Origin: Candidatus Poribacteria bacterium
GTDB taxonomy: Bacteria; Poribacteria; WGA-4E; WGA-3G
NCBI GenBank assembly: GCA_965205025.1
Contig: CBDBFU010000028.1
Coordinates: 32,001 to 96,000 of the forward strand
Direction of reading: 5' to 3'
DNA: 64,000 nt
Position numbers and translations under genes: made by a program. Below, piece by piece: positions 7,479-41,155 of this stretch. Under the pieces are notes generated by a model. The model searched no databases. It was not told the DNA's origin and saw only the letters and a program-made list of their open reading frames with translations. Each line of letters starts with the position of its first letter. Within the stretch, counting starts at the first letter, position 1.

Positions 7479-10457
7479 CTAATCCCTTGTTTGTAAGGTT
7501 GTGGACATTTGGTCACGATAGGCACCGTAGAGGAGTTTTTTGATGGATTCATTAATTTCTGGTTCAGAAAGTTTATTGTAGAGTTCTAATCTGTTATTCA
7601 CGAGTTCTAATAATATAACCTCGAAAACCTCATCAAACTTATATTTTTTGTTTTCTTCTGTATTGTTTCCTTCGAATACCTGTCGAAGTTCCTCGTTTTC
7701 ATTAACCTTTTGTTGTATGGTTTGAATATCCACCTTATCTTCATCGGTAAAATCTGTCTGATGTGCGTCGTTTAAGGACTTAATGAGATTTGATAGAAAT
7801 TCAAGTTCTGGTTCACTTATTGTTCCAACCCCACTGCTAATCCCGTCTACCTCGGTATCCTCCGGTTCAAGTGGAATTTGTAGACTCTCATACGTTCTTT
7901 GTATTCTTAATGAGTCTAAATCTACAGATGATAATAGATCTCCCAAGTCTTCTTGTTCACGTTTTGGGAGTTTCTTATTTAGACTATGTGCAAAGATATA
8001 CAGTTTTTCTAAATCTATATCGCTGTATGTAATCAGTTGTGTGATGTAAGCGTAAAGTCTGATATAACTTTGTAATGTGGAACGAAACTCCTCGCGCGCA
8101 TCTCTTTCCAATTCTTTCCATTTCTCAACGACAGGATCAAGAATCGGTTGAAACGCTTCCTTTTCCTGACTATCGTAAAAAATCTGACAGAATTCATTGA
8201 TAGTATGGTCATCATATAATTCAAAGCTTTCCAGCAGACTTTGTTTGTCATACAACAGATTCGGGTCTGTTTCTTCAGCAAGGGTAGTCATCTGATAGTA
8301 TTCCTGGAATGCTTTCTGCACACGATCAGGATCATTCACAAAATCAATAACTAATGTATCTGTCTTACCAGAGGCAACACGATTAAGCCTACTCAAGGTT
8401 TGGACACACTGGAGACCATCCAATTTCTTATCCACATACATGGTATGTAGCATGGGTTCATCGAATCCCGTTTGGAATTTATTGGCGACAATGAGAATTC
8501 GATATTGTGGACTTTTGAATGCATCGGCAATGGAAGTGTTTGGTGGTAAGTTGTTCATACTGTTTTCAGTGTATTCCACATCACTGTCGGTATCGTGAAT
8601 AGTGTCACTGAATGCTACCAGACATTCATAAGGTAATTGCATCTCTCGCATCTGCTTATCGAATTCAATTTTGTATTTGACGCAGTGAAGTCGTGACCGG
8701 GTTGCCAACATGGCGCGTCCCTTTCCACCAATTGTTTTTTCTGTCCGATCAGTAAAGTGTGTAAGAATAATACGTGTTTTTTCTTCAATACTGCGGGGTT
8801 GTAGGTCTACAAAGTTGGTGAGTGCGCGAAGTGTACGTGATTTTTCATACTCTTTATCTTCCTGCACACTTTTGATCAATTGGAAATATCTCTTATATGT
8901 GGTGTAGTTTTGTAGGACATCAAGGGTATAACCTTCACTGATACTTTGTCGCATTGAATAGAGGTGGAACGGGATGAATTTACCCTCATCGTCTTTATTT
9001 CCAAATAGTTCTAAGGTCTTATTCTTGGGTGTACCGGTAAACCCAAAATATGAGATATGCTCCTGCATTCTGCGTTGTTGCATCTGTTCAAGAATTTTCG
9101 CATCAATATCTGATGCTTCCTCTAAATCATCATCGTCGTCCTGATCTTCGTTCTGCATCCCTTGGGAGAGAGAAACTCTAAGATTCTTCGCAGATTCACC
9201 ACTTTGTGATGAGTGTGCTTCGTCTATAATTACAGCGAATGATTTGCTGTCGAGTTCACCTATTGTTTGAGCAATTACAGTGAACTTTTGGATTGTTGAG
9301 ACGATAATACTTTTTCCGGATTCAAGAAATTCTCTGAGTTGTGCGGAGTTTTTATCGACTGCATGGACAACACCGTCGACTTGTCCAACCTGTTTAATGG
9401 TGTCCTGCAGTTGTTTGTCCAGTAGTCGTCGGTCTGTTACGACAATAATCGAATCGAAAATGCGATTATTATCTGATGGGTTCTGGTATAGATGTGTGAG
9501 TAGGTGTGCTAACCATGCGATGGAGTTTGATTTTCCGCTTCCTGTTGTGTGTTGAATGAGGTATTTACCGCCAACACCATCTGTTATAACTGTCTGTTTC
9601 AATTTGCGAATTACATCCAGTTGATGGTATCGTGGGAAAATGAGTGTTTTCCGTTTTTCATCTCTCACCTCACCACTTCTCGGATCATAGACTTTTTCAG
9701 TGGTCTCCTGTTCATGGATAAAGTTTTGGATTAACTCCATCAGGTTATCGGGTTGTAGTATGTCTTCCCAGAGGTATGCAGTCTTGTGTCCGTTTGGATT
9801 CACGGGATTTTCAATACCTTTATTAAAGGGAAAGAATCTTGTATCTTGTCCTTTCAGGTGGGTTGTCATTGACACCTTCTCGTTCCCGACTGCAAAGTGT
9901 ACCAGACAGCGTTTGAATTGGAATAAGGTTTCTCTTGGATCTCGATCCGTCCGATACTGTTTTTCCGCATCAGTGAAAACTTGTCCAGTGAGACTGTTTT
10001 TTAGCTCCATTGTAACTAACGGTAGACCGTTGAGGAACAACACCATATCCAGTGTATTACCATTTTGCAGTGAATACCTTAACTGTCGAATTAACGAGAA
10101 TCGATTCTGACTGTATAGTTCTTGATGGGTTGGGTTCATCCCACTTGATGGAAGGAGGTAAGTTAGTTTAAAGTTACAACCCCTATCCTTAACGCCGTTC
10201 CGAAGGACATCCAATACACCACGTTGTTCAATTTGTTGGCTGATACGGACAAGGAGTTTCTGTGGTGTATCTTGTCCATATTGGCGTTCCAATTTCTGAT
10301 ATGTTTTGGACTGTGTATCCCGTATAAACTGTAGTATTTCAAGTGGCATTAGGCAGTGAGATTTGTCGTAACTGATAGGATCTGAAGATCTGTAACCTGA
10401 CCGATTCAGGTGTTTTTCTATGTGATCTTCAAAATTCTCTTCAGTATATGTCGGCAC
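7479..10457 (-). CDS. hsdR: Type I restriction enzyme R subunit
   Basis: D..LFLNGLPLVTMELKN nuclease motif, HTTGSGKS, DEAH, FTGTPK, FQTGFDEP; likely GTG start at 10457 with GAGG upstream. Confidence 0.92.
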   Translation of the reverse strand: MPTYTEENFEDHIEKHLNRSGYRSSDPISYDKSHCLMPLEILQFIRDTQSKTYQKLERQYGQDTPQKLLVRISQQIEQRGVLDVLRNGVKDRGCNFKLTYLLPSSGMNPTHQELYSQNRFSLIRQLRYSLQNGNTLDMVLFLNGLPLVTMELKNSLTGQVFTDAEKQYRTDRDPRETLFQFKRCLVHFAVGNEKVSMTTHLKGQDTRFFPFNKGIENPVNPNGHKTAYLWEDILQPDNLMELIQNFIHEQETTEKVYDPRSGEVRDEKRKTLIFPRYHQLDVIRKLKQTVITDGVGGKYLIQHTTGSGKSNSIAWLAHLLTHLYQNPSDNNRIFDSIIVVTDRRLLDKQLQDTIKQVGQVDGVVHAVDKNSAQLREFLESGKSIIVSTIQKFTVIAQTIGELDSKSFAVIIDEAHSSQSGESAKNLRVSLSQGMQNEDQDDDDDLEEASDIDAKILEQMQQRRMQEHISYFGFTGTPKNKTLELFGNKDDEGKFIPFHLYSMRQSISEGYTLDVLQNYTTYKRYFQLIKSVQEDKEYEKSRTLRALTNFVDLQPRSIEEKTRIILTHFTDRTEKTIGGKGRAMLATRSRLHCVKYKIEFDKQMREMQLPYECLVAFSDTIHDTDSDVEYTENSMNNLPPNTSIADAFKSPQYRILIVANKFQTGFDEPMLHTMYVDKKLDGLQCVQTLSRLNRVASGKTDTLVIDFVNDPDRVQKAFQEYYQMTTLAEETDPNLLYDKQSLLESFELYDDHTINEFCQIFYDSQEKEAFQPILDPVVEKWKELERDAREEFRSTLQSYIRLYAYITQLITYSDIDLEKLYIFAHSLNKKLPKREQEDLGDLLSSVDLDSLRIQRTYESLQIPLEPEDTEVDGISSGVGTISEPELEFLSNLIKSLNDAHQTDFTDEDKVDIQTIQQKVNENEELRQVFEGNNTEENKKYKFDEVFEVILLELVNNRLELYNKLSEPEINESIKKLLYGAYRDQMSTTLQTRD

Positions 10458-10541
10458 GGGTCTACACCTCGTCAAATAGATAAGGATTGTTCCTGGACCA
10501 CGGGGATCACGTGACTCCGAATCGTCACACTATCAATCATT

Positions 10542-10811
10542 TCAGGGAGAGTTTAAGCATAAATGCGTATCTATTTCATCTAAACTTTGCGCGTTCATCG
10601 CTTGCTCTAAGAGCATATCAAGGCGCGATAAGTTGTGGATATTGCTTATTTTGTGTGAGAGCGTTTCAGGCACGTTTTGAAATCGGAACTGCAAGAGTTT
10701 GAGGACCGCGTCTTGTTTACCTTCTGCTCTACCTTCTTCTCTGCCTTCTGCTTTACCTTCTTCTCTGAGAAATTCGGCTGTTGTCTGTGCCATCGTTTCT
10801 AACTCCTTCAA
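10542..10811 (-). CDS. Rpn/DUF4351-type C-terminal fragment (EGKAEGREEG repeat)
   Basis: MAQTTAEFLREEGKAEGREEGRAEG...LLQFRF..VP, typical tail of Rpn/YhgA-like proteins; nuclease domain absent. Confidence 0.6.
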   Translation of the reverse strand: MKELETMAQTTAEFLREEGKAEGREEGRAEGKQDAVLKLLQFRFQNVPETLSHKISNIHNLSRLDMLLEQAMNAQSLDEIDTHLCLNSP

Positions 10812-10917
10812 TAGTTGAAGAAAAACATTTTACAAAGTATAGCATAGAAATACCGAAAAAATCAACGCGATATGTATAGCAGTATCGCACGCCAAATCAG
10901 AAAACAAAAAATAGGAT

Positions 10918-12213
10918 CTAAACCTCGGTTCGGACATCAATTTTGCCTGTTACTGCTTCTGAGATAAGGGATTGTCGGTATTCTTTTAGGAGTTCTATTT
11001 TACGGTGTTCTGTGGTAATGAGTTCGTCAATCTGTTTGTTTTTCTGGTCAAGGAAGTTAACGATTTGTTTCAGCTCTTGGGGCAAAGGAATAGGGAGACG
11101 AAAATTTGAATACTTTTCACCATTAACATTCTGGATTGTTGAGATGATTACCTGCTGCTCAAGCCAATTTCTATAAAAATGTGATAGTGTTACGTAGTAG
11201 ATAAATTTCGATGTCCAATAATCATCAAAGTTAAATCTAACGAGATAACCCGCACTGGTATATTTTCCTGTTTCAAGATGCAGATAAGATTTTCCCACTG
11301 TTGCTCCACTACGAGACAAAAGCAAATCATAACTATTGAGCATCTGTTCTTGAGGAACATAATCTTCTGATAGATAAACTCCTTTCTGTGCAAGACTTCC
11401 ACCTTCACCAATATCAGTGATTCTGATCAATCTGATCCCTTCTGTGATATATCTATCTGCCTCAATATTAAGACCATATGTCACTGGAATATTGGAGACA
11501 TACTTCAATCTTGTAATGGTCCAATGTGCTGGGATATCCCCAATCCATTCCACACTTGATGGTTTCATCTCCACATGTGGGTTAAGTCCTTTTGTCACTG
11601 CATGATTTATGAGTGCTGTGCGTTGTTCTTGTAGGAGTTCTATCTTTCGTTCTTTGATGCGGATGAGTTCGTCGATTTGCTCGGTTTTTTGGTCGAGGAA
11701 GTTGGCGATTTCATCTTGTTCATAAATTGGTGGAAAAACTAAAGGGATTTGACCAAATTGATCAAAATATAATCTTAATCTGACTTCTAAAATACCTCTT
11801 GAACGCTTTTTAAATTCCGTAAAATAGAGACCGCATCGAAACAGATACTCGTAGAAATGTTCATTTAAGGGACGGCTCTTTCTCAGAATATCGTATGCCG
11901 GACTTGTAACACCCTCGTAATTAGATAAACCAATCGCACCCATCCAGGCAAGAAGTTTATTGACAATGAAATCTCCTTTTTTTACTAACCAATAACCATC
12001 CGTTGTAGTAGCTTTGTTTCCTCTCTCTTCTAACTCTTTTCTTGGTTTAACACCAATATTTGTATATATTGATAAGAGTTCAAAATCATTGTCTTTGGGA
12101 GCTTGTTCTGTGATTAACTGAAATAGATATTTTGTATTTATCACATCCCAATGTACTGGTATTTCCCCAATCCACTCCACACCGCTGTCTTTATATTCTG
12201 GATATTTTCTCAT
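10918..12213 (-). CDS. hsdS: Type I RM specificity subunit (copy 1)
   Basis: YPEYKDSGVEWIGEIP, two TRDs, central IANFLD..T.QID..LLQEQRTALI.HAVTKGL, terminal EYRQSLISEAVTGKIDVR. Confidence 0.93.
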   Translation of the reverse strand: MRKYPEYKDSGVEWIGEIPVHWDVINTKYLFQLITEQAPKDNDFELLSIYTNIGVKPRKELEERGNKATTTDGYWLVKKGDFIVNKLLAWMGAIGLSNYEGVTSPAYDILRKSRPLNEHFYEYLFRCGLYFTEFKKRSRGILEVRLRLYFDQFGQIPLVFPPIYEQDEIANFLDQKTEQIDELIRIKERKIELLQEQRTALINHAVTKGLNPHVEMKPSSVEWIGDIPAHWTITRLKYVSNIPVTYGLNIEADRYITEGIRLIRITDIGEGGSLAQKGVYLSEDYVPQEQMLNSYDLLLSRSGATVGKSYLHLETGKYTSAGYLVRFNFDDYWTSKFIYYVTLSHFYRNWLEQQVIISTIQNVNGEKYSNFRLPIPLPQELKQIVNFLDQKNKQIDELITTEHRKIELLKEYRQSLISEAVTGKIDVRTEV

Positions 12214-12323
12214 AATTCCATCATCTCTTTATCTACATCGCGGATTATGCTGATTACACAAGTTTCACATATTAGATCGGTAGATTGTAATACCAATTTT
12301 TACTTAATTAGTTTACAAAGAAA

Positions 12324-12600
12324 TTCTATAAACATTCCGTCCCTACGGGACTCATTCGGTTAATTGATCCGTTTTCTATAGACATTCCGTCCCTACGGGA
12401 CTCAAGATAATGGATAAACACGTTTTCTATAGACATTTCGTCCCTACGGAACTCAAAATAGTGGATAAGCACGTTTTCTATAAACATTCCGTCCCTACCA
12501 AATCAAGGAATCAACGGTATGAATGACATAAGTTATTCCCCGGGACTCAATATATAAGATATTCCCCTTTTTCTATAGACATTCCGTCCCTACGGGACTG
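12324..12600. repeat. Tandem array of five family-A REP-like units (~50-bp period), fourth unit interrupted by a 43-bp insert
   Basis: TTCTATA(G/A)ACATT(C/T)CGTCCCTACGG(G/A)ACT at ~12324, 12374, 12425, 12476 (split) and 12571. Confidence 0.85.
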
Positions 12601-12701
12601 GAATTTTTACAACTAATTAATCCTATTTAGATGAAAATCGTAATGTAGATATTTCAATTGAAAATGGTATAACTTCATTACATTGTTAGACTTTGTTTAT
12701 A

Positions 12702-13272
12702 TTGGTCTTGAGAATTCTCTTCAATCACAGATTCTTCTGGTTGTTAAAAAGGTGTAAAATCAGATATTTAATCCTAATATACAGACAAAAAATTAATCCT
12801 AAAAACAGACTTTTAATCCTAAATTCTGAGACAGTTGATCGTGTTGTTGCATTTCTCTATGTCTCGAAAAAATGAAAAAAGTTACACTTTTTGTCACACG
12901 GTGTGACATTGAAATTGGTACATATTATCCCTGTAACGCCTGTCATAGACTGCGTTTACGGCACTTTGAATTGATTTTATAAGAATTTCGAAAAAATGTA
13001 GTTTTGTGTTTTTGTTGTTCTTGCGGATTTTGGTGTTCTCTACGGTTAAAAAGGTATGCTTTTTTGACGTATATGAAACTTTGTAATTAGGATCGTTTTT
13101 ATAGATTGTCATTTGTTTTTAGTTATTAGTTTTTGTTTGTGATCTAACCCGTAATTTATTTTCATTTTGAGAAATATTATGAATTTGTTTTTACGTTTTT
13201 GTGATATATATGTTAGTTGTTAGAGGTAGGTGTTTTCTTCATATTTTTAGAAATTTATTTAAGAATGTTTGA
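12702..13272 (-). repeat. ~570-bp conserved intergenic element, copy 1
   Basis: Collinear with 38932-39499 on the opposite strand; contains a 31-bp IR (12931-12961), a 35-bp double palindrome (12876-12910) and 3x TTAATCCTAA. Confidence 0.85.
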
Positions 13273-17285: not shown

Positions 17286-19013
17286 TCATAAATCCAACAC
17301 CTCATTCAGCAATCCTTCACTTTTCTGTTCCAGTGCTAACAATTCGTCCGTGATTTCCTTTAGGGATCGCAGGGGTGTGTATTGATAGAAATACTTGTTG
17401 AAATTGATTTCATAACCAACCTTATCCTTCTTCCTGTCCATCCAACTATCGGGAACATGTGGTTTCACTTCTCTTTGGTAGTATTCGTTTATATCATCGG
17501 AAAGGGGTACACGTTCATAGTCGCGCAGTTTAGTATCTGGTTTCGGATTTCCTTTCTTGTCAGTGAGAATATCCCCTGTTTCTTCGTCTATGAGTGGTCT
17601 CTCAATGGTGACCTTCGTATATCCAAAATAGTCATTTGAGAAGATTTTGCAGTGGTCGGTTTCTTCAAAATTCGTGTATAATTCGATTATCTGTGCAATA
17701 TGGTTTTCAGTGATTATGGCGTTCTTGTCTCCGAGATTCCTTTTCATACCATCATAGAATTCAACTGCATTTATGAGTTGTATTTTACCTTCGCGTTCCG
17801 CAGATTTTCGATTTGTTAAAATCCAGATGTAGGTTGCGATACTGGTATTAAAGAAAAGCTTTTCGGGTAACGCAATAATACACTCCAGCCAGTCGTTTTC
17901 GATGATCCATCGTCGTATTTCACTTTCACCGCTGCCAGCATCACCTGTGAAGAGGGGTGAACCGTTAAAGACGATTCCAACACGACTTCCCTTTTCTCCC
18001 ATCTTTGAGAGCATGTGTTGCAAAAATAGAAGTGCACCATCAGAGGAACGTGGTGTACCTGCTGAGAATCTACCTTGAGGATTTTCTGCTTCTGTTTTCA
18101 CTACGGCTTCGTCCGATTTCCAACTGACACCGAAGGGTGGATTGGTAATCATGTAATCGAACCGTTGTCCTTGAAATTGGTCATCAGAGAGGCTGGAACC
18201 GAGGCGTATATTATCAGGATCTTCTTCTGTAATGAGCATGTCAGACTTACAAGTTGCATAACTTTGTGCGTTCAGTTCTTGACCTAATAAACGAATGGTG
18301 GCATCTGGATTTATATGTTTTTTGAAATACTCCTTACCAATAGTCAGCATCCCACCTGTTCCACAACATGGATCGAAAATACTACGAACAATACCTTGTC
18401 CTTTTAGATCGTCTGTGTGTTCCGCGAAAAGGAGTGAAACTAATAGTCGGACAACATCCCGCGGTGTGTAGTGTTCCCCACTGGTTTCGTTGGACATTTC
18501 TGAGAAGCGTCGTAGCAGTTCCTCAAAGATTTGTCCCATAGTGTGGTTATCTACTTGCTTGGGATGTAAATCGACTTCGGTGAACTTGTCACAAAACAGA
18601 TATAGACGGTTGTTGTTGTGTAGTCTTTCGATAAACCCATCAAGATTGAAATTATCTATGATGTCTCGAACTTCCTGACTGAATCCATTGATGTAGTTTT
18701 CAAAGTTTAGACGGATGTTGTTGGGATCACCTTTTAGTCGAGAAAGGTCATATTGAGAAGTGTTGTAGAATTTGGTTTTTATGGTATTCAGAATTATGGG
18801 TGATAATCTATCATCGGGTACATTTTGGTTGTACTTGTTGTAAGCTTCGATTGCTTTCTCTTTCCGATCGTCCTCTTCTAAGATGCAGTCCAATCGGCGT
18901 AGCACCAGAAATGGGAGGGTGATGTCGCCATATTCATGTGGTTTGAATAGTCCTCTGAGAACGTCGTCTGCTACATTCCAAACGAGATTTGCCAGTTCTT
19001 GGTAATTCGCCAT
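17286..19013 (-). CDS. hsdM: Type I RM N6-adenine methyltransferase subunit
   Basis: GEHYTPRDVV, DPCCGTGGML, NPPFG, GSPLFTGDAGSGESEIR. Confidence 0.93.
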   Translation of the reverse strand: MANYQELANLVWNVADDVLRGLFKPHEYGDITLPFLVLRRLDCILEEDDRKEKAIEAYNKYNQNVPDDRLSPIILNTIKTKFYNTSQYDLSRLKGDPNNIRLNFENYINGFSQEVRDIIDNFNLDGFIERLHNNNRLYLFCDKFTEVDLHPKQVDNHTMGQIFEELLRRFSEMSNETSGEHYTPRDVVRLLVSLLFAEHTDDLKGQGIVRSIFDPCCGTGGMLTIGKEYFKKHINPDATIRLLGQELNAQSYATCKSDMLITEEDPDNIRLGSSLSDDQFQGQRFDYMITNPPFGVSWKSDEAVVKTEAENPQGRFSAGTPRSSDGALLFLQHMLSKMGEKGSRVGIVFNGSPLFTGDAGSGESEIRRWIIENDWLECIIALPEKLFFNTSIATYIWILTNRKSAEREGKIQLINAVEFYDGMKRNLGDKNAIITENHIAQIIELYTNFEETDHCKIFSNDYFGYTKVTIERPLIDEETGDILTDKKGNPKPDTKLRDYERVPLSDDINEYYQREVKPHVPDSWMDRKKDKVGYEINFNKYFYQYTPLRSLKEITDELLALEQKSEGLLNEVLDL

Positions 19014-32904: not shown

Positions 32905-34009
32905 TTGGTTGAATTAAAAACACAAATAGATGCATATACAACTCGACTTCAAGAACTCAGGGGGTATCTTTGACCTTGAAGTAAAACAGAAAGAACTTGA
33001 AGATCTTGAGAAAGAGGCATTCAGTACTGAATTCTGGGAGAATACACAAAGAGTTCAAACAGTTAATCAACGGATCTCATCTCTAAAAGAGGAAATAAAC
33101 GAATTTGATAATTTAGCAAATGCAATAGACGATCTTCAAGTACTCTTTGAATTGGCTATTGAGGAGAATGAGACTGATCTCCAATCCGAAATTGAAACTG
33201 GGTTAGAATCAATTGGTCAACAATTTGAGAAAATTGAGCTCAAATTAATGTTGGATGATGAGTTTGATGAAAATAATGCAATCATCAATATTCATCCTGG
33301 GGCAGGGGGTGTGGACGCTCAAGATTGGGCTGGTATGTTGATGAGAATGCATCTTAGATGGTGTGATCAACACAATTACACGACTGAAGTTGTAGATATT
33401 ACAAGTGGAGATGAAGCAGGAATTAAAGGCGCAACCATCTTAGTTAAGGGAACTTATGCTTATGGGTATCTGAAAGCGGAATCTGGGGTACACCGTCTCG
33501 TTAGACTTTCTCCGTTCGATTATAATAACAAGCGGCATACATCGTTTGCTGCAGTCCATGTAACCCCAGAAATCGATGACAGTGTTGAGGTGGAAATTGC
33601 CAATGAAGACCTTAGAATTGATACATACAGAGCAAGTGGCGCAGGTGGTCAACATGTAAATGTAACGGATTCTGCTGTGCGAATTACACATATACCCACT
33701 GGAATTATAATCCAATGTCAAAATGAACGTTCACAACACAGGAACAGAGAGATTGCAATGAAAGTGTTACGTTCCCGTTTGTATGAACATTTACGAGCTC
33801 AAAGAGATGAAGAGATAGCGAAACTCCAACCCGAAAGAAGAAATATCGACTTTGGTAGTCAAATTAGATCTTATGTTCTACATCCGTACCAACGTGTAAA
33901 AGACAATAGAACTAATCTTGAAACCGGAAATGTTGATGCAGTGTTAAATGGTGATTTGGATATGTTTATTGAAGGTTATTTGAAAATGAAACCCACAGGA
34001 AGTAATTGA
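32905..34009 (+). CDS. prfB: Peptide chain release factor 2 with programmed +1 frameshift
   Basis: TTG start 32905; AGGGGG-TAT-CTT-TGA-C at 32959-32974; SPF and GGQ motifs in the +1 frame. Confidence 0.93.
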
Positions 34010-34032
34010 AACATCACATACTGGAGGAACAC

Positions 34033-35466
34033 ATGTATAAAATACAAGATTATATTTACATAACACTGTTCTTCTGTTTGTTCTTGGTAGATTATAACGC
34101 ATGTGCAGCTGTGATTAATGTTCCAAATGAAGAATTTACGATCCAATCAGGAATTGATGCTGCCGAAAATGGTGATACCGTTTTGGTTGCAAAGGGAGTT
34201 TATAAAGGTCCTGGAAATGTCAACATCGATTTTAAAGGCAAACAGATAATAGTAAAATCTGAGAGTGGACCAAAAACAACAATAATTACATGTTCATATC
34301 AATCCAATACACGCGGGTTTAGTTTTACGAACAAAGAGACAAATGACGCTGTGTTGGAAGGTTTTACAATTCGCAATGGAATCCATATAAATGGTGGTGG
34401 AATTTACATTTTTAATTCTTCTCCAACAATAAAGAATTGCATTGTTGAGTGGAATCGAACTGTGAGAGACGGTTCAAGGACAGGACAAGGTGGTGGCATT
34501 TACGCTAAGAATTCGGATGTTGTGTTAAGGGGATGTACTATTAGCAACAACCGTGCTGTCTCCTACGGTGGTGGTGTTTTCTTTGAAGGATCCGAAGAAG
34601 ATGATATTGAAAAAAGAGACGGATTCTATCAACCAAGTGTGATTGACTGTACTATATCACATAATACGGGTAGTGGTATTCATAGTATAGAGAGTGTACG
34701 CACTATTATCAAAGACTCAAAAGTTTCTCAGAATTCAAGACGGGGTATAGTAGCTGCAATTTTTCAAAGGGGTGGCACTTTCGTAACGAACTGTGTAATC
34801 TCTCAAAATACTGGTGGTGGTGTGGAATGTAACGAATTCTCTATTTTGAAGATCCAAGATTCTGTCATCAAACAAAATACTGGAGAGATCGGTGGGGGAA
34901 TCTACGGAAGTCCGTCAGCAGAAATTGAAGCTACGAACTGTGTTATCGCTCAGAATATAGCGCAGCGATGGGGTGGTGGTATTGGCATAACATCTAAATT
35001 CGGTGGTACGACCATAACCAATTGTACCATTACACGTAATGTGTCAGAAGAAAAAGGTGGTGGCGTTTACGCTTCATTATTTGGTGCTGGTTTAACAATG
35101 TTAAACTCTATAGTTTGGGGAAATAGTTCTAACCGTACTCATAATGAAATCTTTGGCAGTGGACCAACAATCACCATTAGAAATTCTGATATCAAGGATG
35201 GAATCAAAGGCTTTGTAATACCACCATTTGATGAATGGCTAATCTATGAGGATAATATCGAAGCTGATCCGCTTTTCGTAAATCCTGATAGTGGGGATTA
35301 TAGTCTTGAACCAAACAGTCCAGCCATAGGAATGGGGCATACGGCGGAATTAAAGATAGATGTCGAAGAAGATGAACAAGAACAAGAAGAAGAAAAGGCT
35401 CCAGTTAATGTAACTTCAGCTGGAAAGCTTGTTGTAAAATGGGGTGTTTTGAAACAAGAAGATTAG
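34033..35466 (+). CDS. Secreted right-handed parallel beta-helix protein (paralog 1)
   Basis: TIQSGIDAA..GDTVLV..G.YKG, repeated GGGIY...I.NC.I..N, ADPLFV, C-terminal GKLVVKWGVLK. Confidence 0.85.
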   Translation: MYKIQDYIYITLFFCLFLVDYNACAAVINVPNEEFTIQSGIDAAENGDTVLVAKGVYKGPGNVNIDFKGKQIIVKSESGPKTTIITCSYQSNTRGFSFTNKETNDAVLEGFTIRNGIHINGGGIYIFNSSPTIKNCIVEWNRTVRDGSRTGQGGGIYAKNSDVVLRGCTISNNRAVSYGGGVFFEGSEEDDIEKRDGFYQPSVIDCTISHNTGSGIHSIESVRTIIKDSKVSQNSRRGIVAAIFQRGGTFVTNCVISQNTGGGVECNEFSILKIQDSVIKQNTGEIGGGIYGSPSAEIEATNCVIAQNIAQRWGGGIGITSKFGGTTITNCTITRNVSEEKGGGVYASLFGAGLTMLNSIVWGNSSNRTHNEIFGSGPTITIRNSDIKDGIKGFVIPPFDEWLIYEDNIEADPLFVNPDSGDYSLEPNSPAIGMGHTAELKIDVEEDEQEQEEEKAPVNVTSAGKLVVKWGVLKQED

Positions 35467-35486
35467 CTCTAAAGTTGGAGAAATAC

Positions 35487-36884
35487 ATGAAGAGATATTG
35501 CCAGCAAGTTTATTTAATTATCATTCTATGTTTCTTTTGTATGGATACCTCAATTTTTGCTGCTGTGATACAAATTCCTGATGATCTTCCTACAATACAA
35601 TCTGGCATTGATGCTGCAAAAAATGGTGATACGGTCTTGATCGCAGATGGAATCTATAAAGGTGATGGTAATGTTAACTTAGATTATAAAGGGAAACAGA
35701 TAATAGTAAAATCTGAGAGTGGACCAAAAACAACAATTATCAACTGTTCACATCAACCCAACACCCGGGGGTTTACTTTTACAAACAAAGAGACAAATGA
35801 CGCTGTGTTGGAAGGTTTTACAATTCGTAATGGAATCCATATAAATGGTGGTGGAATTTATATTTTTAATTCTTCACCAACAATAAAGAATTGCATTATT
35901 GAGTGGAATCGTGCAGTGAAAGAGAGTACTGTGACAGGACGAGGTGGTGGGATTTATGCGAAAAATTCGGAAGTAGATATTATTGGTTGTACAATTAGCA
36001 ACAATCAAGCCGAACATACCTATGGTGGTGGTATTTGCTTTGAAGGTGACAAAGAAGATCCTGACTTTTTTCTTGTAAGATTCTATCAACCGAGTATAAG
36101 TAATTCTATCATTGATCAGAATACTGGTAGCGGTATCCACAATATAGGGTATATACAGACACACATCAAGAAATCAATAATCTCTCGAAATACGCTACGC
36201 GGTATAGTAGCTACAGATTTTCAACGAGGCGGTACCTACATTACGAACTGTGTAATCTCTCAAAATACTGGTGGTGGTGTGGAATGTAACCAACACTCAA
36301 TAATGGAGATTAAAGATTCTGTCATCAAACAAAATACTGGAAAGATCGGTGGGGGAATCTACGGAAATACGGCAGCATCAATTGAGGCTACGAACTGTGT
36401 TATCGCTCAAAATATAGCACAGCAATCAGGTGGTGGTATAGGTATAGAATCTAAATGGGGTGGTACGACCATAACCAATTGTACCATTACACGTAATGTG
36501 TCAGAAGAACAGGGAGGCGGTGTATATGCTTTTTCATTTGGTGCAGGTTTAACTATGTTAAACTCTATAGTATGGGCAAATAGTTCTAATGGTACTCATA
36601 ATAATCTATTTGGAAGTGGACCAAGTATTGTTATAAAAAATTCAGATATCAAGGATGGAATTCAAGGTATTGAAATTCCACCATTTGATGAATGGTTAAT
36701 CTATGAAGATAATATTGATTCAGACCCACTGTTTGTTGATCCTGATAACGGGGATTATAGGTTAATGCAAGGGAGTCCAGCTGTAGGAATGGGGGCTAAT
36801 ACATTATCTCAAATTCCAACGAGTGTCAGGTCTGTTGGTAAGAAATGGTTGAAATGGGGAGAACTCAAACTGAATACACGTTAG
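35487..36884 (+). CDS. Secreted right-handed parallel beta-helix protein (paralog 2)
   Basis: Tandem paralog of 34033..35466; C-terminal GKKWLKWGELK. Confidence 0.85.
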   Translation: MKRYCQQVYLIIILCFFCMDTSIFAAVIQIPDDLPTIQSGIDAAKNGDTVLIADGIYKGDGNVNLDYKGKQIIVKSESGPKTTIINCSHQPNTRGFTFTNKETNDAVLEGFTIRNGIHINGGGIYIFNSSPTIKNCIIEWNRAVKESTVTGRGGGIYAKNSEVDIIGCTISNNQAEHTYGGGICFEGDKEDPDFFLVRFYQPSISNSIIDQNTGSGIHNIGYIQTHIKKSIISRNTLRGIVATDFQRGGTYITNCVISQNTGGGVECNQHSIMEIKDSVIKQNTGKIGGGIYGNTAASIEATNCVIAQNIAQQSGGGIGIESKWGGTTITNCTITRNVSEEQGGGVYAFSFGAGLTMLNSIVWANSSNGTHNNLFGSGPSIVIKNSDIKDGIQGIEIPPFDEWLIYEDNIDSDPLFVDPDNGDYRLMQGSPAVGMGANTLSQIPTSVRSVGKKWLKWGELKLNTR

Positions 36885-36990
36885 AATGAAATGGGTCAAA
36901 CATTCTCATATAATTTACTGAATCAGATAGCAAGACTATTCTGATGAAATCTCCCAATTCGGCTCGCTTATCCGACGACAAGGAGGCATC

Positions 36991-37278
36991 ATGAAAAACG
37001 CTGAACTTAAACAACAAGCGATTGCTTATATTGAACAACTTTCGACTGAAAAACTTGAGACCGCCCTTAACTACCTCGCTGCTCTTCGGAATTCTGATCT
37101 TTGGGTAGCCGAGACGGAGTCGGAAGAACGAAAAAGTTCGGATCAGGTGTCTCCACTCCTTGCATTGGCGGGAACGTTGGAATGTGACGAGGAGAACATC
37201 AGTGATCGCCACGATGAGTTGATCGGTGATGGGTTACTAACAGAGCTATGGGGGCGTGCGGATACCTATAGTGGGTAG
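36991..37278 (+). CDS. DUF2281-like small antitoxin-type protein
   Basis: IEQLSTEKLETALNYLAAL..., PLLALAG....ISDRHDE; AGGAGG RBS. Confidence 0.6.
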   Translation: MKNAELKQQAIAYIEQLSTEKLETALNYLAALRNSDLWVAETESEERKSSDQVSPLLALAGTLECDEENISDRHDELIGDGLLTELWGRADTYSG

Positions 37279-37307
37279 TCCACGTTAATTTTGTGAGTAG
37301 TTTCTTC

Positions 37308-37366
37308 TGTAGGAGCGACCTCCTGGTCGCGACATGATTTTTCGTAGCGCAAACTGTTAGTTTGCG
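37308..37366. repeat. Two GTAG-type REP units
   Basis: TGTAGGAGCGACCTCCTGGTCGCGAC and GTAG-CGCAAACT-GTT-AGTTTGCG. Confidence 0.65.
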
Positions 37367-37519
37367 TCCTCACAGGCACAATCTAAGCAATATTAAATAA
37401 TTAATTAGCAATTTTCCGATTTTTACCACAGACACTGAACCCGTAATTGACGCACAATATACATATCTAATATGTGAAATCCGTGTAATCCACAATTCAG
37501 ACAAAGTGGTAATGGAATT

Positions 37520-38848
37520 ATGAAACGTTATCCTGAATATAAAGACAGCGGTGTGGATTGGATTGGTGAGATACCAAAGGATTGGAATGCAGTTCCATTG
37601 ACAAAGTATTTGGAGTCTATCATTGACTACAGAGGTAGAACGCCGGAAAAGACAGAGAATGGAAGGTTTCTTGTTACCGCCAAAAACATAAGAGATGGTC
37701 AAATTGATTATGAACTTTCTCAGGAATTTACATCAGAAGATGAATATCAAAGATTAATGACCAGGGGTGTGCCACAAATAGGTGATGTGCTTTTCACAAC
37801 AGAAGCACCGTTGGGTGAGGTGGCAAATGTAGATGATGTCTCAATTGCTCTGGCACAGCGGATTATTAAGTTTAGACCTAAGACAGATTTACTTAATCCG
37901 TATTTTCTGAAGTATTGGATACTCTCCTATTGTTTCCAATCTGACCTACAGCGATATGCAACGGGTTCAACAGCACGAGGCATAAAAGCGAGTAAACTCT
38001 GTTTATTAAAACTCAATCTACCCCCTCTTAAAGAACAAACCAAAATCGCCAACTTCCTTGACCGAAAAACAGAACAAATCGACAAACTCATCCGCATCAA
38101 AGAACGAAAAATAGAACTCCTACAAGAACAACGCACTGCACTGATAAATCACGCAGTGACAAAAGGACTTGACCCAAATGTGGAGATGAAACCATCGGGT
38201 GTGGAGTGGATTGGGGAAATTCCAAAGCATTGGGTAGTTAAACGACTAAAATATTTAGCAAGATTAATATCAAAAGGGACAACTCCCACAACACTTGGGA
38301 GAGAAATTATGGATGAAGGTGAAATTCGTTTTATTAAAGGTGAAAACTTAGTTGATAGTCAAATCGAACTCGAACCTGCATACTTTATTGATGAAGAAAC
38401 AAACCAATTGCTAAATAGATCTAAATTAGAGGAAAATGACCTTCTTTTTGTTATTGCGGGAACAATAGGAAAAGTTGGAATAGTTCGATCAATTCATTTA
38501 CCTGCAAATACTAATCAAGCTTTATCATTTATAAGACTTAACGAGGATGAACTACCCGAATTTGTTTTTTATTGGCTGCAATCGGATAAAATTCAAAATA
38601 TGGTTTGGTTAGATGTAGTAAAATCAGCACAACCTAACTTATCTATGGAGAACTTAGGTAACCTGTATATACCATATCCATGTCTTACTGAACAAAGACA
38701 GATTATTCGATACATTAAGGAGAAATCAGAAACCATAGTTAATCACATTAAACAGTCTTATGAACAGATTAAACTCCTAAAAGAATACCGACAATCCCTT
38801 ATCACCGAAGCAGTGACAGGTAAAATTGATGTCCGAAACGAGGTTTAG
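37520..38848 (+). CDS. hsdS: Orphan type I RM specificity subunit (copy 2)
   Basis: Same conserved N-terminal, central and C-terminal blocks as 10918..12213, with unrelated TRDs. Confidence 0.93.
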   Translation: MKRYPEYKDSGVDWIGEIPKDWNAVPLTKYLESIIDYRGRTPEKTENGRFLVTAKNIRDGQIDYELSQEFTSEDEYQRLMTRGVPQIGDVLFTTEAPLGEVANVDDVSIALAQRIIKFRPKTDLLNPYFLKYWILSYCFQSDLQRYATGSTARGIKASKLCLLKLNLPPLKEQTKIANFLDRKTEQIDKLIRIKERKIELLQEQRTALINHAVTKGLDPNVEMKPSGVEWIGEIPKHWVVKRLKYLARLISKGTTPTTLGREIMDEGEIRFIKGENLVDSQIELEPAYFIDEETNQLLNRSKLEENDLLFVIAGTIGKVGIVRSIHLPANTNQALSFIRLNEDELPEFVFYWLQSDKIQNMVWLDVVKSAQPNLSMENLGNLYIPYPCLTEQRQIIRYIKEKSETIVNHIKQSYEQIKLLKEYRQSLITEAVTGKIDVRNEV

Positions 38849-38931
38849 ATCCTATCTTGTTATTTTTTTGATTCGGCGTACAATATAGGGGTATAAAGTT
38901 TATGGCAGTAACAAGCATAAAATGAAATGGG

Positions 38932-39539
38932 TCAAACATTATTAAATAAAAAATGAAGAAAAAATCCATATCTAACAACTAACATACATATATCACAAAA
39001 ATAGAAGCACACTTTAAGAATATCTGTCAAAATGAAAATAAAATTAAGGGTTAGAACACAAACTAAAAACCAATAACTATAAACTAATGACTATCTATAA
39101 AAGCGATCCTAATTACGAACTTTTATATACGTTAAAAAACACGCATCTTTTGACGGTTAGAAATGTCAAAATCAGGAAGGACAACAAAAACACAAAAGCA
39201 CATTTTTTTGAAATTCTTATAAATCAAGTCCAAACTGCTATAACCCCATTCTATGACAGGGGTTATAGGGGTAATTTACACCAATTTCAATGTCACACCA
39301 TGTGACAAAAAGTGTAACTTTTTTCATTTTTTCGACGCATAGAGAAATGCAACAGTAATACGATCTACTGTCTGAGTATTTAGGATTAAATGTCTGTTTT
39401 TATAGTTTATTTTTGTATGTATATTAGGATTAAATGTCTGTTTTTATACCTTTTTAACAATCAGAAATATCAGTTATTGAAGAGTATTCTCAAGACCAAG
39501 TTACAATCTACCGATCTAATTCGGGAAATTTGTGTAATC
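38932..39539 (+). repeat. ~570-bp conserved intergenic element, copy 2, plus 39-bp hsdS-leader-like segment
   Basis: Collinear with revcomp of 12702-13272; 39501-39539 matches revcomp of ~12252-12290; 25-bp direct repeat at 39380 and 39424. Confidence 0.85.
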
Positions 39540-39607
39540 TTTCTATTCCAAACACAAGATAGGGATTTCAAGCCAAAAACTTTACTTATCTATAAATTGG
39601 TTTCATG

Positions 39608-39636
39608 TTGCATAGATTAGGAAATAAGGGTATAAT
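39608..39636 (+). promoter_or_regulatory. Sigma70-like promoter of lysS
   Basis: TTGCAT-17 bp-TATAAT. Confidence 0.55.
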
Positions 39637-39682
39637 TAAAAGGTCTATAATATGTATGTAAGAGGGGAAGGAGGGTAGATAT

Positions 39683-41155
39683 ATGGAAGAATCAAATGAC
39701 TTAATGCGACAACGAAAAGAAAAAGTAAATGAAATCCGTGAAGCGGGTATTAATCCTTATCCGCATCAATATACACCTACACACTCAACGTCACTCATTC
39801 ATAATGAATTTGAAGATGCGGATGATACACCAGATGAGAAAAATAAAGTCACTATCGCTGGAAGGATAATGACAAAACGCGATCATGGAAAAAGCAGTTT
39901 TGCACATATACAAGATAGTGAAGGACAAATCCAAATATACATACGACGGGACAATGTTGGACAAGATGCCTACCAGATATATCGAAAAGTTGATGTTGGT
40001 GATATTATCGGTGTGAGTGGCGTCGTTTTTCGGACACGTACTGGTGAGTTAACTATACTTGCTGATACAGTCGAATTACTCTCCAAATCTATCAGACCTC
40101 TCCCTGAAAAATGGCACGGTTTACAAGATAAGCAGACAAGATACAGACAACGTTATGCTGATCTTATCATGAATCCTGAAGTAAAGGATGTATTTATCAA
40201 GAGAACACATATTATACAAACTATACGGGACATGTTAAATGATGACAATTTCATTGAAGTAGAAACACCTGTCTTACAACCTATTTACGGAGGGGCAAGT
40301 GCGCGGCCATTTACGACTTATCATAATACATTAGATCAACCTTTATATCTCAGAATCGCGAATGAACTTTACTTAAAAAGACTAATTGTCGGTGGATTTG
40401 ATAGAGTCTATGAATTTTCACGTGACTTCAGAAACGAAGGAATGGACAGAGATCATAATCCAGAATTTACCATGTTAGAACTCTATCAAGCTTATGCTGA
40501 TTATCGAGAAATAATGGAACTAACAGAGAATCTTATTGCACAGACTGTTGAAAAACTACACGGCACAACAAAAATACAATACCAGGAGCAAGAGTTAGAT
40601 TTTACACCACCTTGGAACAGAATTACAATGGTGGAATCAATTCAGCAACACAGTAATTTTGATCCTGTTTCCTTATCTGATGACGAACTATACACTAAGT
40701 CTATTAATGCTGGAATTGAATTAGAAGGTGATGAATCAAGAGGTGAAATTATAGCAGAACTGTTCGATACATTTGTTGAAGATAAACTAATTCAACCCAC
40801 CTTTATTTATGATTACCCTATAGAAGTTTCTCCTTTTGCTAAAAAGAAACCTGAAAATCCTGAATATGTTGAACGGTTTGAATTCTTTATTTCTGGAATG
40901 GAAGTTGGTAATGCTTTTAGCGAACTAAATGATCCAATTGATCAACGACAACGTTTCTTAGAACAAGCAAGCAATTTAGAGAAAGGTGATGAAGAAGCCT
41001 TTATGGTTGATGAAGATTATCTACGCGCATTGGAATACGGAATGCCACCCACAGGTGGACTTGGAATAGGAATTGATAGATTGACAATGTTGTTGACTGA
41101 TCAATATTCCATTCGTGATGTGATTCTGTTTCCGCAAATGCGACCAGAAAGTTAA
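39683..41155 (+). CDS. lysS: Lysine--tRNA ligase (class II)
   Basis: PLPEKWHGL, GGASARPF, FRNEG, YGMPPTGGLGIGIDR. Confidence 0.96.
   Translation: MEESNDLMRQRKEKVNEIREAGINPYPHQYTPTHSTSLIHNEFEDADDTPDEKNKVTIAGRIMTKRDHGKSSFAHIQDSEGQIQIYIRRDNVGQDAYQIYRKVDVGDIIGVSGVVFRTRTGELTILADTVELLSKSIRPLPEKWHGLQDKQTRYRQRYADLIMNPEVKDVFIKRTHIIQTIRDMLNDDNFIEVETPVLQPIYGGASARPFTTYHNTLDQPLYLRIANELYLKRLIVGGFDRVYEFSRDFRNEGMDRDHNPEFTMLELYQAYADYREIMELTENLIAQTVEKLHGTTKIQYQEQELDFTPPWNRITMVESIQQHSNFDPVSLSDDELYTKSINAGIELEGDESRGEIIAELFDTFVEDKLIQPTFIYDYPIEVSPFAKKKPENPEYVERFEFFISGMEVGNAFSELNDPIDQRQRFLEQASNLEKGDEEAFMVDEDYLRALEYGMPPTGGLGIGIDRLTMLLTDQYSIRDVILFPQMRPES

What the first reader, a model, noticed from the sequence alone, without database searches (positions are those of the whole stretch)
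36885..38940. Orphan hsdS on a 2,036-bp segment bounded by an exact 20-bp direct repeat, docked against the conserved element
Seen: AATGAAATGGGTCAAACATT starts immediately after the stop codon of the beta-helix gene (36885) and recurs 72 bp after the hsdS stop (38921). Between them lie only a small antitoxin-like ORF, REP units and a complete hsdS. The last 9 bp of the repeat (TCAAACATT) are also where homology between the two ~570-bp element copies begins (copy 1: 13272-13264 on the minus strand). Inference: a specificity-subunit cassette integrates or excises at the element's edge, supplying alternative TRDs to the HsdM/HsdR 20-30 kb away. No recombinase is encoded in the window.
Basis: partly seen in the sequence, partly recalled or inferred. 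Interest (0 to 1): 0.75.

Follow-up and report, generated by a model that had tools for sequence, protein, structure and literature searches.

The report
Transposon-relic insertion of extra hsdS
A spare DNA-recognition gene of a restriction enzyme was inserted once into the relic of a promoter-seeking transposon, probably by recombination between copies of that relic; this may give the cell an extra anti-phage target sequence, but it is not a dedicated switchable cassette.

Summary
The exact 20-bp repeat and the 2,036-bp segment are real, and the closest relative has the empty site. The 20-mer is not an edge or att site. It is positions ~35-54 of a dispersed, non-autonomous ISKra4-derived element (159 ends; 46 lie 15-17 bp from a -35 box). 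The copy at 38887-39591 sits 16 bp upstream of the lysS promoter. Both cargo ends are element sequence in register. The hsdS 3' junction is a proven ISKra4 target, hit independently in two other genomes. Both 20-mers share variants that are rare or absent in 24 other copies, so the resident copy was duplicated after the split from the relative. Best reading: one-off recombination between element copies moved an hsdS allele to lysS. HsdS2 is intact, has new TRDs and probably uses the single cognate HsdM/HsdR in trans; a second orphan sits on another contig. No reversible cassette system is supported: no recombinase in the window, no hsdS at this site in 20 relatives, no circle seen. Orphan HsdS and ISKra4 promoter targeting are both published, and this scan noted ISKra4 MITEs in other Poribacteria before.

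The parts
35439..36884 (+). second beta-helix gene; left flank of the insertion
   Evidence: Pfam Beta_helix; adjacent to lysS in 20 of 20 relative loci
36885..36904 (+). first 20-mer = positions ~35-54 of the ISKra4-derived element, fused to the gene end through a 5-bp AATGA microhomology
   Evidence: (G004 has the same junction; G018 has AATGA followed by unrelated DNA)
36886..36914 (+). sigma70-like promoter (10 of 12, perfect -10) spanning the left junction and facing the cargo; activity not shown
   Evidence: best of 4 sites in the region; chance about 0.007 at a fixed junction; the same perfect -10 occurs in 2 other copies and is missing in the G004 empty site
36905..36922 (+). cargo left end: continues as element sequence (positions ~55-72)
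   Evidence: 13 of 18 identical to two other copies, P about 0.012
36991..37278 (+). orphaned antitoxin-position ORF (95 aa); the PIN toxin start is deleted between GCGGAT repeats, leaving a remnant at 37264-37278
   Evidence: 87-90% nucleotide homologues in 6 of 39 relatives; followed by a PIN gene in 3 of 3 ORFs scanned; no Pfam or NCBIfam hit itself
37269..37445 (.). three short dispersed repeats (REP-like hairpins)
   Evidence: multi-copy matches in own and related genomes
37454..37490 (+). relic of the element's right part fused to the hsdS leader; junction shared with hsdS1 and hsdS3
   Evidence: 5 sites genome-wide at 8 or fewer mismatches: itself, hsdS1 and hsdS3 leaders (6 each), element copy 2 (8), one REP array (8)
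37520..38848 (+). hsdS2, intact 442-aa Type I specificity subunit with two distinct TRDs
38849..38887 (+). hsdS trailer ending at an ISKra4 target site (left target-duplication copy about 38879-38887)
   Evidence: same nucleotide is occupied in G034 (9-bp duplication, 16 bp from the -35) and G032 C85
38887..39591 (+). non-autonomous ISKra4-derived element, about 705 bp, both ends decayed but recognisable
38921..38940 (+). second 20-mer, inside the element
39608..39636 (+). lysS promoter-like site (-35 at 39608, 17-bp spacer, TATAAT), 16 bp from the element tip; read by eye, below the scan's threshold
   Evidence: conserved in relatives that lack the element
39683..41155 (+). lysS (lysyl-tRNA synthetase; name inferred from Pfam domains)
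12252..13272 (-). element copy 1, truncated at both ends and interrupted by a repeat array, fused to the hsdS1 leader
   Evidence: sister to the copy before hsdS3 (94%, 100/100)
10918..12213 (-). hsdS1, the operon copy
10874..10889 (-). doubled 8-mer (7 of 8 alike) at the same ISKra4 target behind hsdS1; possible footprint of a lost element
   Evidence: also behind hsdS3; single in the 6 unoccupied trailers of relatives
17286..19013 (-). hsdM, the only cognate copy in the genome; NPPF motif present
7479..10475 (-). hsdR, 998 aa, Walker A and DEAH motifs present

Best explanation
A single ectopic insertion of an hsdS allele, driven by recombination between copies of an ISKra4-derived non-autonomous element. 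(1) Shown by comparison: an element inserted 16 bp upstream of the lysS -35 box. (2) Shown by comparison: it lost its left end onto the beta-helix stop, leaving the 20-mer there, as in G004. (3) Junctions shown, order of events inferred: in this lineage an hsdS allele became bracketed by two same-direction copies, one fused to its leader and one inserted at the promoter target just behind its stop. (4) Inferred: that unit, as a circle or as an incoming fragment from another strain, recombined into the lysS copy within positions 35-54, and repair left two copies of the resident's private 20-mer. (5) Inferred: HsdS2, possibly transcribed from the element-derived promoter across the left junction, assembles with the single cognate HsdM/HsdR and adds a specificity, as orphan HsdS do in lactococci.
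For: G004 has the empty site, and 19 of 20 relatives have no element there. The family ends are those of a 1,502-bp IS present three times in G007, whose transposase passes the ISKra4 cutoff (249 vs 205 bits). 46 of 159 ends have a 5/6 or better TTGACA at 15-17 bp, against 2% background, as described for the ISKra4 group (PMC3942029). Both cargo ends are element sequence in register. Of 11 hsdS ends with this trailer among 34 examined, 3 carry an element end at the same nucleotide, one of them intact with a 9-bp duplication. All three G000 hsdS share the element-leader junction. Position 11 G is in both local 20-mers, in 0 of 24 other copies and not in G004; fourfold-site divergence from G004 is 47/171 and 39/124, so the duplication postdates the split. 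Only 4 of 24 paired elements keep a target duplication, which points to frequent rearrangement at these copies. The six G000 TRDs are 33% identical or less, while the central conserved regions are 85-86% identical.
Against: No circle or donor locus was observed. A plain single crossover would give hybrid 20-mers, so conversion or repair must be added to explain two resident-type copies. Twenty base pairs is short for RecA. The body of the lysS element does not group with G004's copy (78% identical; G004's groups with its own subfamily, 100/99), so conversion or replacement also happened. Only one empty-site genome was found, about 92% identical in the flanking genes. In G032 the three extra hsdS carry a different repeat, and the sister genome has no resident repeat at those sites, so docking into a resident copy is not the general route. 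Expression, complex formation and methylation are untested.
Confidence: 0.6

Rival explanations
1. One reading: a dedicated, reversible cassette that integrates and excises at the 20-mer as an att core through a recombinase encoded elsewhere.
For: Exact direct repeat with an empty site in G004. Two tyrosine recombinases exist elsewhere in the genome.
Against: The 20-mer is internal to a transposon relic and varies across copies. No hsdS or small ORF at the site in 20 relatives. No comparable case among 11 element-touching unique repeats. The cargo is a mosaic of debris. Both recombinases lie on other contigs, and the family rings in all 14 control genomes.
Confidence: 0.08
2. Transposase-driven event: an ISKra4 transposase made a cointegrate or one-ended product joining the element's left end to the target behind hsdS, duplicating the resident element, and later deletions trimmed the left copy.
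For: The right junction is an exact ISKra4 target. Replicative fusion would explain identical private variants. The family transposes through circles (PMC3942029).
Against: The resident had already lost its left end before the split from G004, whereas the duplication looks later. G000 holds only transposase fragments.
Confidence: 0.15
3. The filled state is ancestral, a relic of a larger restriction island, and G004 lost it by deletion between the repeats.
For: Other orphans in the genus are relics of whole operons: hsdM fragments at the groEL locus in G006 and G029, and a full operon in G009 at the locus where G027 and G032 have only hsdS.
Against: It needs two 20-mers to stay identical, and share a G000-only base, across about 30% fourfold-site divergence. 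No hsdM or hsdR fragment lies in the segment.
Confidence: 0.1
4. On function only, and compatible with the best explanation: hsdS2 is a silent TRD reservoir that recombines with hsdS1 by inversion or conversion, or is neutral debris, rather than an expressed subunit.
For: hsdS1 and hsdS2 are inverted, 25 kb apart, and share exact 23-, 25/26- and 32-bp repeats at the 5', central and 3' conserved regions. That meets the screen of PMC7394358 (20 bp or more within 30 kb).
Against: There is no recombinase at the locus, and the repeats are only 79-90% alike overall. The 26-kb interval holds housekeeping genes and has the same relative orientation in G025. A promoter-like site faces the cargo.
Confidence: 0.25
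5. Assembly artefact joined through repeats.
For: The genome appears to be a metagenome assembly rich in repeats; no listed contig piece spans the right junction.
Against: Unitigs with 0 differences bridge the left junction in X19 and X20 (36480-37031; X19 may be the source sample). Element copies are about 85% alike, too different to misjoin. The right junction falls on a biologically targeted nucleotide.
Confidence: 0.03

Closest known systems
ISKra4-group insertion sequences (p-MULT 4; Guerillot et al. 2014, PMC3942029) and their non-autonomous derivatives
   Same: Near-perfect terminal inverted repeats, 8-9-bp target duplications, insertion about 16 bp from sigmaA/70 -35 boxes with promoters at either end. 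A cognate transposase passes NF033572.
   Different: The local copy has no transposase, is decayed, and here acts as portable homology that received a passenger gene rather than transposing.
Orphan Type I HsdS subunits of Lactococcus plasmids (PMC12418389) and of Staphylococcus epidermidis (PMC6918075)
   Same: A complete hsdS away from hsdM/hsdR, with new TRDs and conserved interaction regions, expected to act in trans.
   Different: It is chromosomal, not plasmid- or SCC-borne, and was placed by a transposon relic. Activity is not shown here; 43% of the lactococcal reservoir is described as silent.
Inverting Type I loci with duplicated hsdS (SpnIII, S. suis; PMC7394358)
   Same: Two distinct hsdS in inverted orientation within 30 kb, with exact repeats of 20 bp or more before and between the TRDs.
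   Different: No recombinase at the locus, the second hsdS is not in the same locus, the repeats are short and diverged, and no inversion was observed.
Mycoplasma genomes with many hsdS per hsdM/hsdR (PMC3874165, passage read)
   Same: Several hsdS for one cognate hsdM/hsdR (3 in G000, 4 in G032).
   Different: Few copies, and each orphan arose separately and is lineage-specific.
IS26 translocatable units and mobile insertion cassettes (recalled, not looked up)
   Same: One element copy plus adjacent DNA docks next to a resident copy.
   Different: Different transposase family; only 20 bp are duplicated; no transposase involvement is shown.

Membership tests
ISKra4-derived non-autonomous element | Terminal inverted repeats shared with an autonomous ISKra4-family IS | tested here: met
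   Same end motif on three 98.8-99.9% alike copies in G007, two with both ends seen; transposase 249 bits vs cutoff 205
ISKra4-derived non-autonomous element | Insertion 15-17 bp from a -35 box | tested here: met
   46 of 159 ends (34 at exactly 16 bp) vs 2% background; local right tip 16 bp from the lysS -35
ISKra4-derived non-autonomous element | 8-9-bp target duplication | tested here: inconclusive
   Kept in 4 of 24 paired copies and in G034; absent at the local copy, whose two ends come from different sites
ISKra4-derived non-autonomous element | No transposase of its own; supplied in trans | tested here: met
   No ORF of 80 aa or more in 38887-39591; only fragments in G000, intact genes in several relatives
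Site-specific integrative cassette | Direct repeat at both ends and an empty site in a relative | tested here: met
Site-specific integrative cassette | Cognate recombinase linked to the site | tested here: not met
   None in 55 window ORFs scanned; two unlinked tyrosine recombinases elsewhere
Site-specific integrative cassette | Reuse of the site by this or other cargo | tested here: not met
   0 of 20 relative loci with hsdS or the small ORF; no second case among 11 element-touching repeats
Site-specific integrative cassette | Excised circle | tested here: inconclusive
   Only contigs were available; no such joint among the 15 listed, 9 not shown
Orphan Type I HsdS acting in trans | Complete two-TRD hsdS unlinked to hsdM/hsdR | tested here: met
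Orphan Type I HsdS acting in trans | Conserved regions match the resident system's HsdS | tested here: met
   Central 85%, N-terminal 77%, C-terminal 77% to hsdS1; one cognate hsdM
Orphan Type I HsdS acting in trans | A distinct m6A motif dependent on the orphan | not testable with these tools
   No methylome; a search for Poribacteria plus methylome returned 0 papers
Inverting (phase-variable) Type I locus | Exact inverted repeats of 20 bp or more within 30 kb in a second hsdS | tested here: met
   23, 23, 25, 26 and 32 bp
Inverting (phase-variable) Type I locus | Second hsdS in the same locus, with a recombinase | tested here: not met
   25 kb of unrelated genes between them and no recombinase

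The most novel reading that the evidence does not exclude
In this genus, dispersed promoter-associated repeats serve as a recurring, selected route for scattering hsdS alleles around the chromosome, each arriving with a promoter. One HsdM/HsdR core then runs several specificities at once (three HsdS with six different TRDs in G000; four HsdS in G032, through a different repeat). This would be a chromosomal, repeat-driven counterpart of the lactococcal plasmid HsdS pool, needing no dedicated recombinase.
Probability: 0.3. Interest if true: 0.6.

Novelty: new variant of a known kind. Interest (0 to 1): 0.38.

Why it matters
Each ingredient is known: orphan HsdS working in trans, ISKra4 promoter targeting, and recombination between dispersed repeats. 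The value is a well-resolved case of how an orphan hsdS arises on a chromosome, with an empty site, a nucleotide-exact donor junction and an independent parallel in G032. If the extra subunits are active, these symbionts widen their restriction range without a shufflon or plasmid, and one long-read methylome would test it. My paper searches listed no report of MITE-mediated hsdS dispersal or of a Poribacteria methylome; the library lacks most subscription journals.

Tried and rejected
Rfam scan of 36800-39800 at E up to 1: no match. A metagenome scan for the left junction found 0 loci. Contigs of 4 of 21 listed runs were laid. No empty-site or circle joint appeared among the 15 joints listed (9 not shown), but contigs drop rare variants. 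In X1 and X2 (about 95% identical) contigs leave the window at 36910 with 74 unaligned letters that were not shown, so filled versus empty stayed undecided. X1 covers TRD1 (7 differences in 507) but not 38308-38755, and a gap in cover proves nothing. A genus-wide pattern for the trailer-element junction recovered G034 only, plus two 2-mismatch hits not examined, and it missed the G000 and G032 cases. PF00872 found nothing in 5 genomes; PF06782 found only G007. The idea that hsdS is a passenger between two element ends was rejected: no element end lies just behind hsdS3, and the end behind hsdS2 faces away. The idea that the G032 orphans docked into resident repeats was not supported: G033 has neither repeat nor hsdS at 3 of 3 syntenic sites. 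Orthology of the G000 and G004 element bodies was not supported. TRD splits mis-parsed some genes and are superseded, where the G014 copy (mis-set start) and the broken G027 C362 copy were left out of the clustering. The PDB search gave only generic HsdS relatives, so the Type I subfamily was not assigned. No complex or structure prediction was run, because an M-S pair would pass by likeness to solved structures.

Full report
Observation. The 20-mer is exact at 36885 and 38921 and far beyond chance. It is the only exact pair in the genome, but 8 sites match at 2 or fewer mismatches and 12 at 3 or fewer. The contents are as described. No recombinase was found in the 55 of 86 window ORFs scanned. 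The label Poribacteria comes from earlier scan notes, not from a test of mine; the runs holding the DNA are mostly sponge or marine metagenomes.

What the 'conserved element' is. It is a dispersed family: 130 hit clusters and 46 copies with a long core. Alignment of left flanks shows that it starts about 34 bp before the second 20-mer, at a terminal motif GGGTGTGTAAAG. Of 159 ends, 46 have a 5/6 or better TTGACA 15-17 bp outside, 34 at exactly 16 bp, against 2% background. Relative G007 has three 98.8-99.9% alike copies of a 1,502-bp IS with the same ends, and its transposase passes the NCBIfam ISKra4 cutoff. G000 retains only fragments. PMC3942029 (passages and section 12 read) describes this targeting, with promoters on either side and 8-9-bp duplications, for the ISKra4 group. 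The local copy spans 38887-39591 and ends 16 bp before the lysS -35 box. The second 20-mer is therefore internal to the element. Earlier scan notes reached the same family in other genomes, after I had identified it.

Empty site and timing. I fetched 20 syntenic loci from the 36 same-genus genomes searched. None has hsdS or the small ORF between the beta-helix genes and lysS, and only G004, the closest, has the element. In G004 the beta-helix stop is followed by one 18/20 copy that runs straight into the element. G018 has only the first five bases, so the left truncation arose at an AATGA microhomology. Both G000 copies carry T8 (shared with G004 and 1 of 24 other copies) and G11 (0 of 24, and not G004). 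Fourfold-site divergence from G004 is about 0.28-0.32. The duplication is therefore of the resident copy and later than the split. Against a simple picture, the element bodies of G000 and G004 at lysS are only 78% alike and do not group together.

Anatomy of the cargo. The first 18 bases continue as element sequence (13 of 18, P about 0.012) and complete a 10/12 promoter-like site facing the cargo, which the G004 empty site lacks. The small ORF has 87-90% homologues in 6 of 39 relatives, followed by PIN genes in the 3 scanned; here the toxin start is deleted. A 37-bp relic of the element's right part is fused to the hsdS2 leader, and the same junction precedes hsdS1 and a third copy, hsdS3, on contig C20. 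The elements before hsdS1 and hsdS3 are sisters (94%). The right end of the cargo is the element's first 34 bp, joined 38 bp behind the hsdS stop. Of 34 hsdS 3' ends examined, 11 have this trailer, which in most unoccupied copies leads into a promoter. Three of the 11 carry an element end at the same nucleotide: hsdS2, G032 C85 and G034, the last intact with a 9-bp duplication 16 bp from the -35. Two (hsdS1, hsdS3) carry a doubled 8-mer there, and six are unoccupied.

Mechanism. An hsdS allele bracketed by two same-direction element copies recombined into the truncated lysS copy within positions 35-54, and repair left the resident's sequence on both sides (confidence 0.6). The junctions, the empty site and the timing are shown; the intermediate and the enzyme are inferred. 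Rearrangement at these copies looks common, since only 4 of 24 paired elements keep a target duplication. This exact outcome is unique by my reading of the flanks of the 11 element-touching repeats among 1,417 unique direct repeats. A transposase cointegrate (0.15), an ancestral filled state (0.10), a reversible site-specific cassette (0.08) and an artefact (0.03) are weaker. Contig data support the left junction in X19 and X20 but could not test circles.

Function. G000 has one cognate hsdM and hsdR with their motifs intact and three intact hsdS. Their six TRDs are 33% identical or less and their central conserved regions 85-86% identical. TRD1 shows 35 synonymous against 10 non-synonymous codon changes to a G027 copy, and it occurs as the second TRD of an operon hsdS in a metagenome contig. 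Action in trans follows from precedent, not from a test here: PMC12418389 and PMC6918075 (passages read) report active orphans, but also many silent ones. hsdS1 and hsdS2 also meet the inverted-repeat screen of PMC7394358 (passages read), without a recombinase or a shared locus. PMC3874165 (passages read) notes Mycoplasma with many hsdS. All other papers were seen as search listings only. No supplements were opened; the junction tables of PMC3942029 could bear on the end comparison.

Breadth. The family's hsdS was found in 23 of 40 genus genomes and its hsdM in 22 of 40. Five genomes have two or more full central matches: G000 3, G001 3, G032 4, G029 2, and G011 2 (fragmented, 7% contamination). 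Some orphans are relics of whole operons. In G032 all four copies share a 450-470-bp leader that is a different multi-copy repeat, and the sister G033 lacks both repeat and hsdS at the 3 syntenic sites. This parallels G000 but by an undetermined route. Other orphans (G018, G001 C2, the groEL-locus copies) show no element end nearby.

Verdict. The feature is real and the insertion is supported, but it is not a dedicated cassette system. It is a new variant of known kinds; interest 0.38. The boldest reading still open, repeat-driven and selected dispersal of hsdS alleles onto one M/R core, has probability 0.3 and interest 0.6.

Noticed in passing
L108:6842-13175 (G000 C20 315841-322174): Second orphan, hsdS3, behind an element with a complete left end and three cargo ORFs, one of which matches cargo inside G018's hsd operon. 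Its two TRDs match those of G004's operon hsdS in swapped order (84% and 81%).
   Followed up: partly
L112:2771-8391 (G003); L103:11049-13196 (G020); L165:5606-6153: A unit made of the last ~35 codons of hsdS, a promoter and an Rpn/YhgA-like gene (PF04754) sits between hsdS and hsdR, once in G020 and three times in tandem in G003. It looks like a circle integrating at the hsdS 3' end. The window's 10542-10811 ORF is a remnant of it.
   Followed up: partly
window 10874-10889 and behind hsdS3 (L108): Doubled 8-mer at the ISKra4 target with no element between: a possible excision footprint that keeps both target copies.
   Followed up: partly
L122:11384-11860 (G032) and 19 further matches in that genome: A different ~450-bp promoter-bearing dispersed repeat, absent from G000, precedes all four G032 hsdS; it starts a few bases from an ISKra4 tip in the operon copy.
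   Followed up: partly
L099, L115, L119, L120, L121, L124: Several relatives have hsdS with two closely similar TRDs (G059, G024) or half-size hsdS of 218-235 aa (G009, G022, G006, G027), implying symmetric targets.
   Followed up: no
window 34006-36884; L021-L040: The beta-helix genes between prfB and lysS form a variable tandem array of 1 to 6 copies across 20 relatives.
   Followed up: no
L106, L107, L111, L114 (after groEL); L097, L109, L119: Two further hotspots where this hsd family survives as hsdS alone, with hsdM fragments, or as a full operon.
   Followed up: partly
genome-wide, G000: 20 of 24 paired ISKra4-type elements have unmatched flanks, and several right ends share the same outside 20 bases, suggesting nested or recombined copies.
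   Followed up: no
window 12300-12620: A ~50-bp-period repeat array interrupts element copy 1.
   Followed up: no
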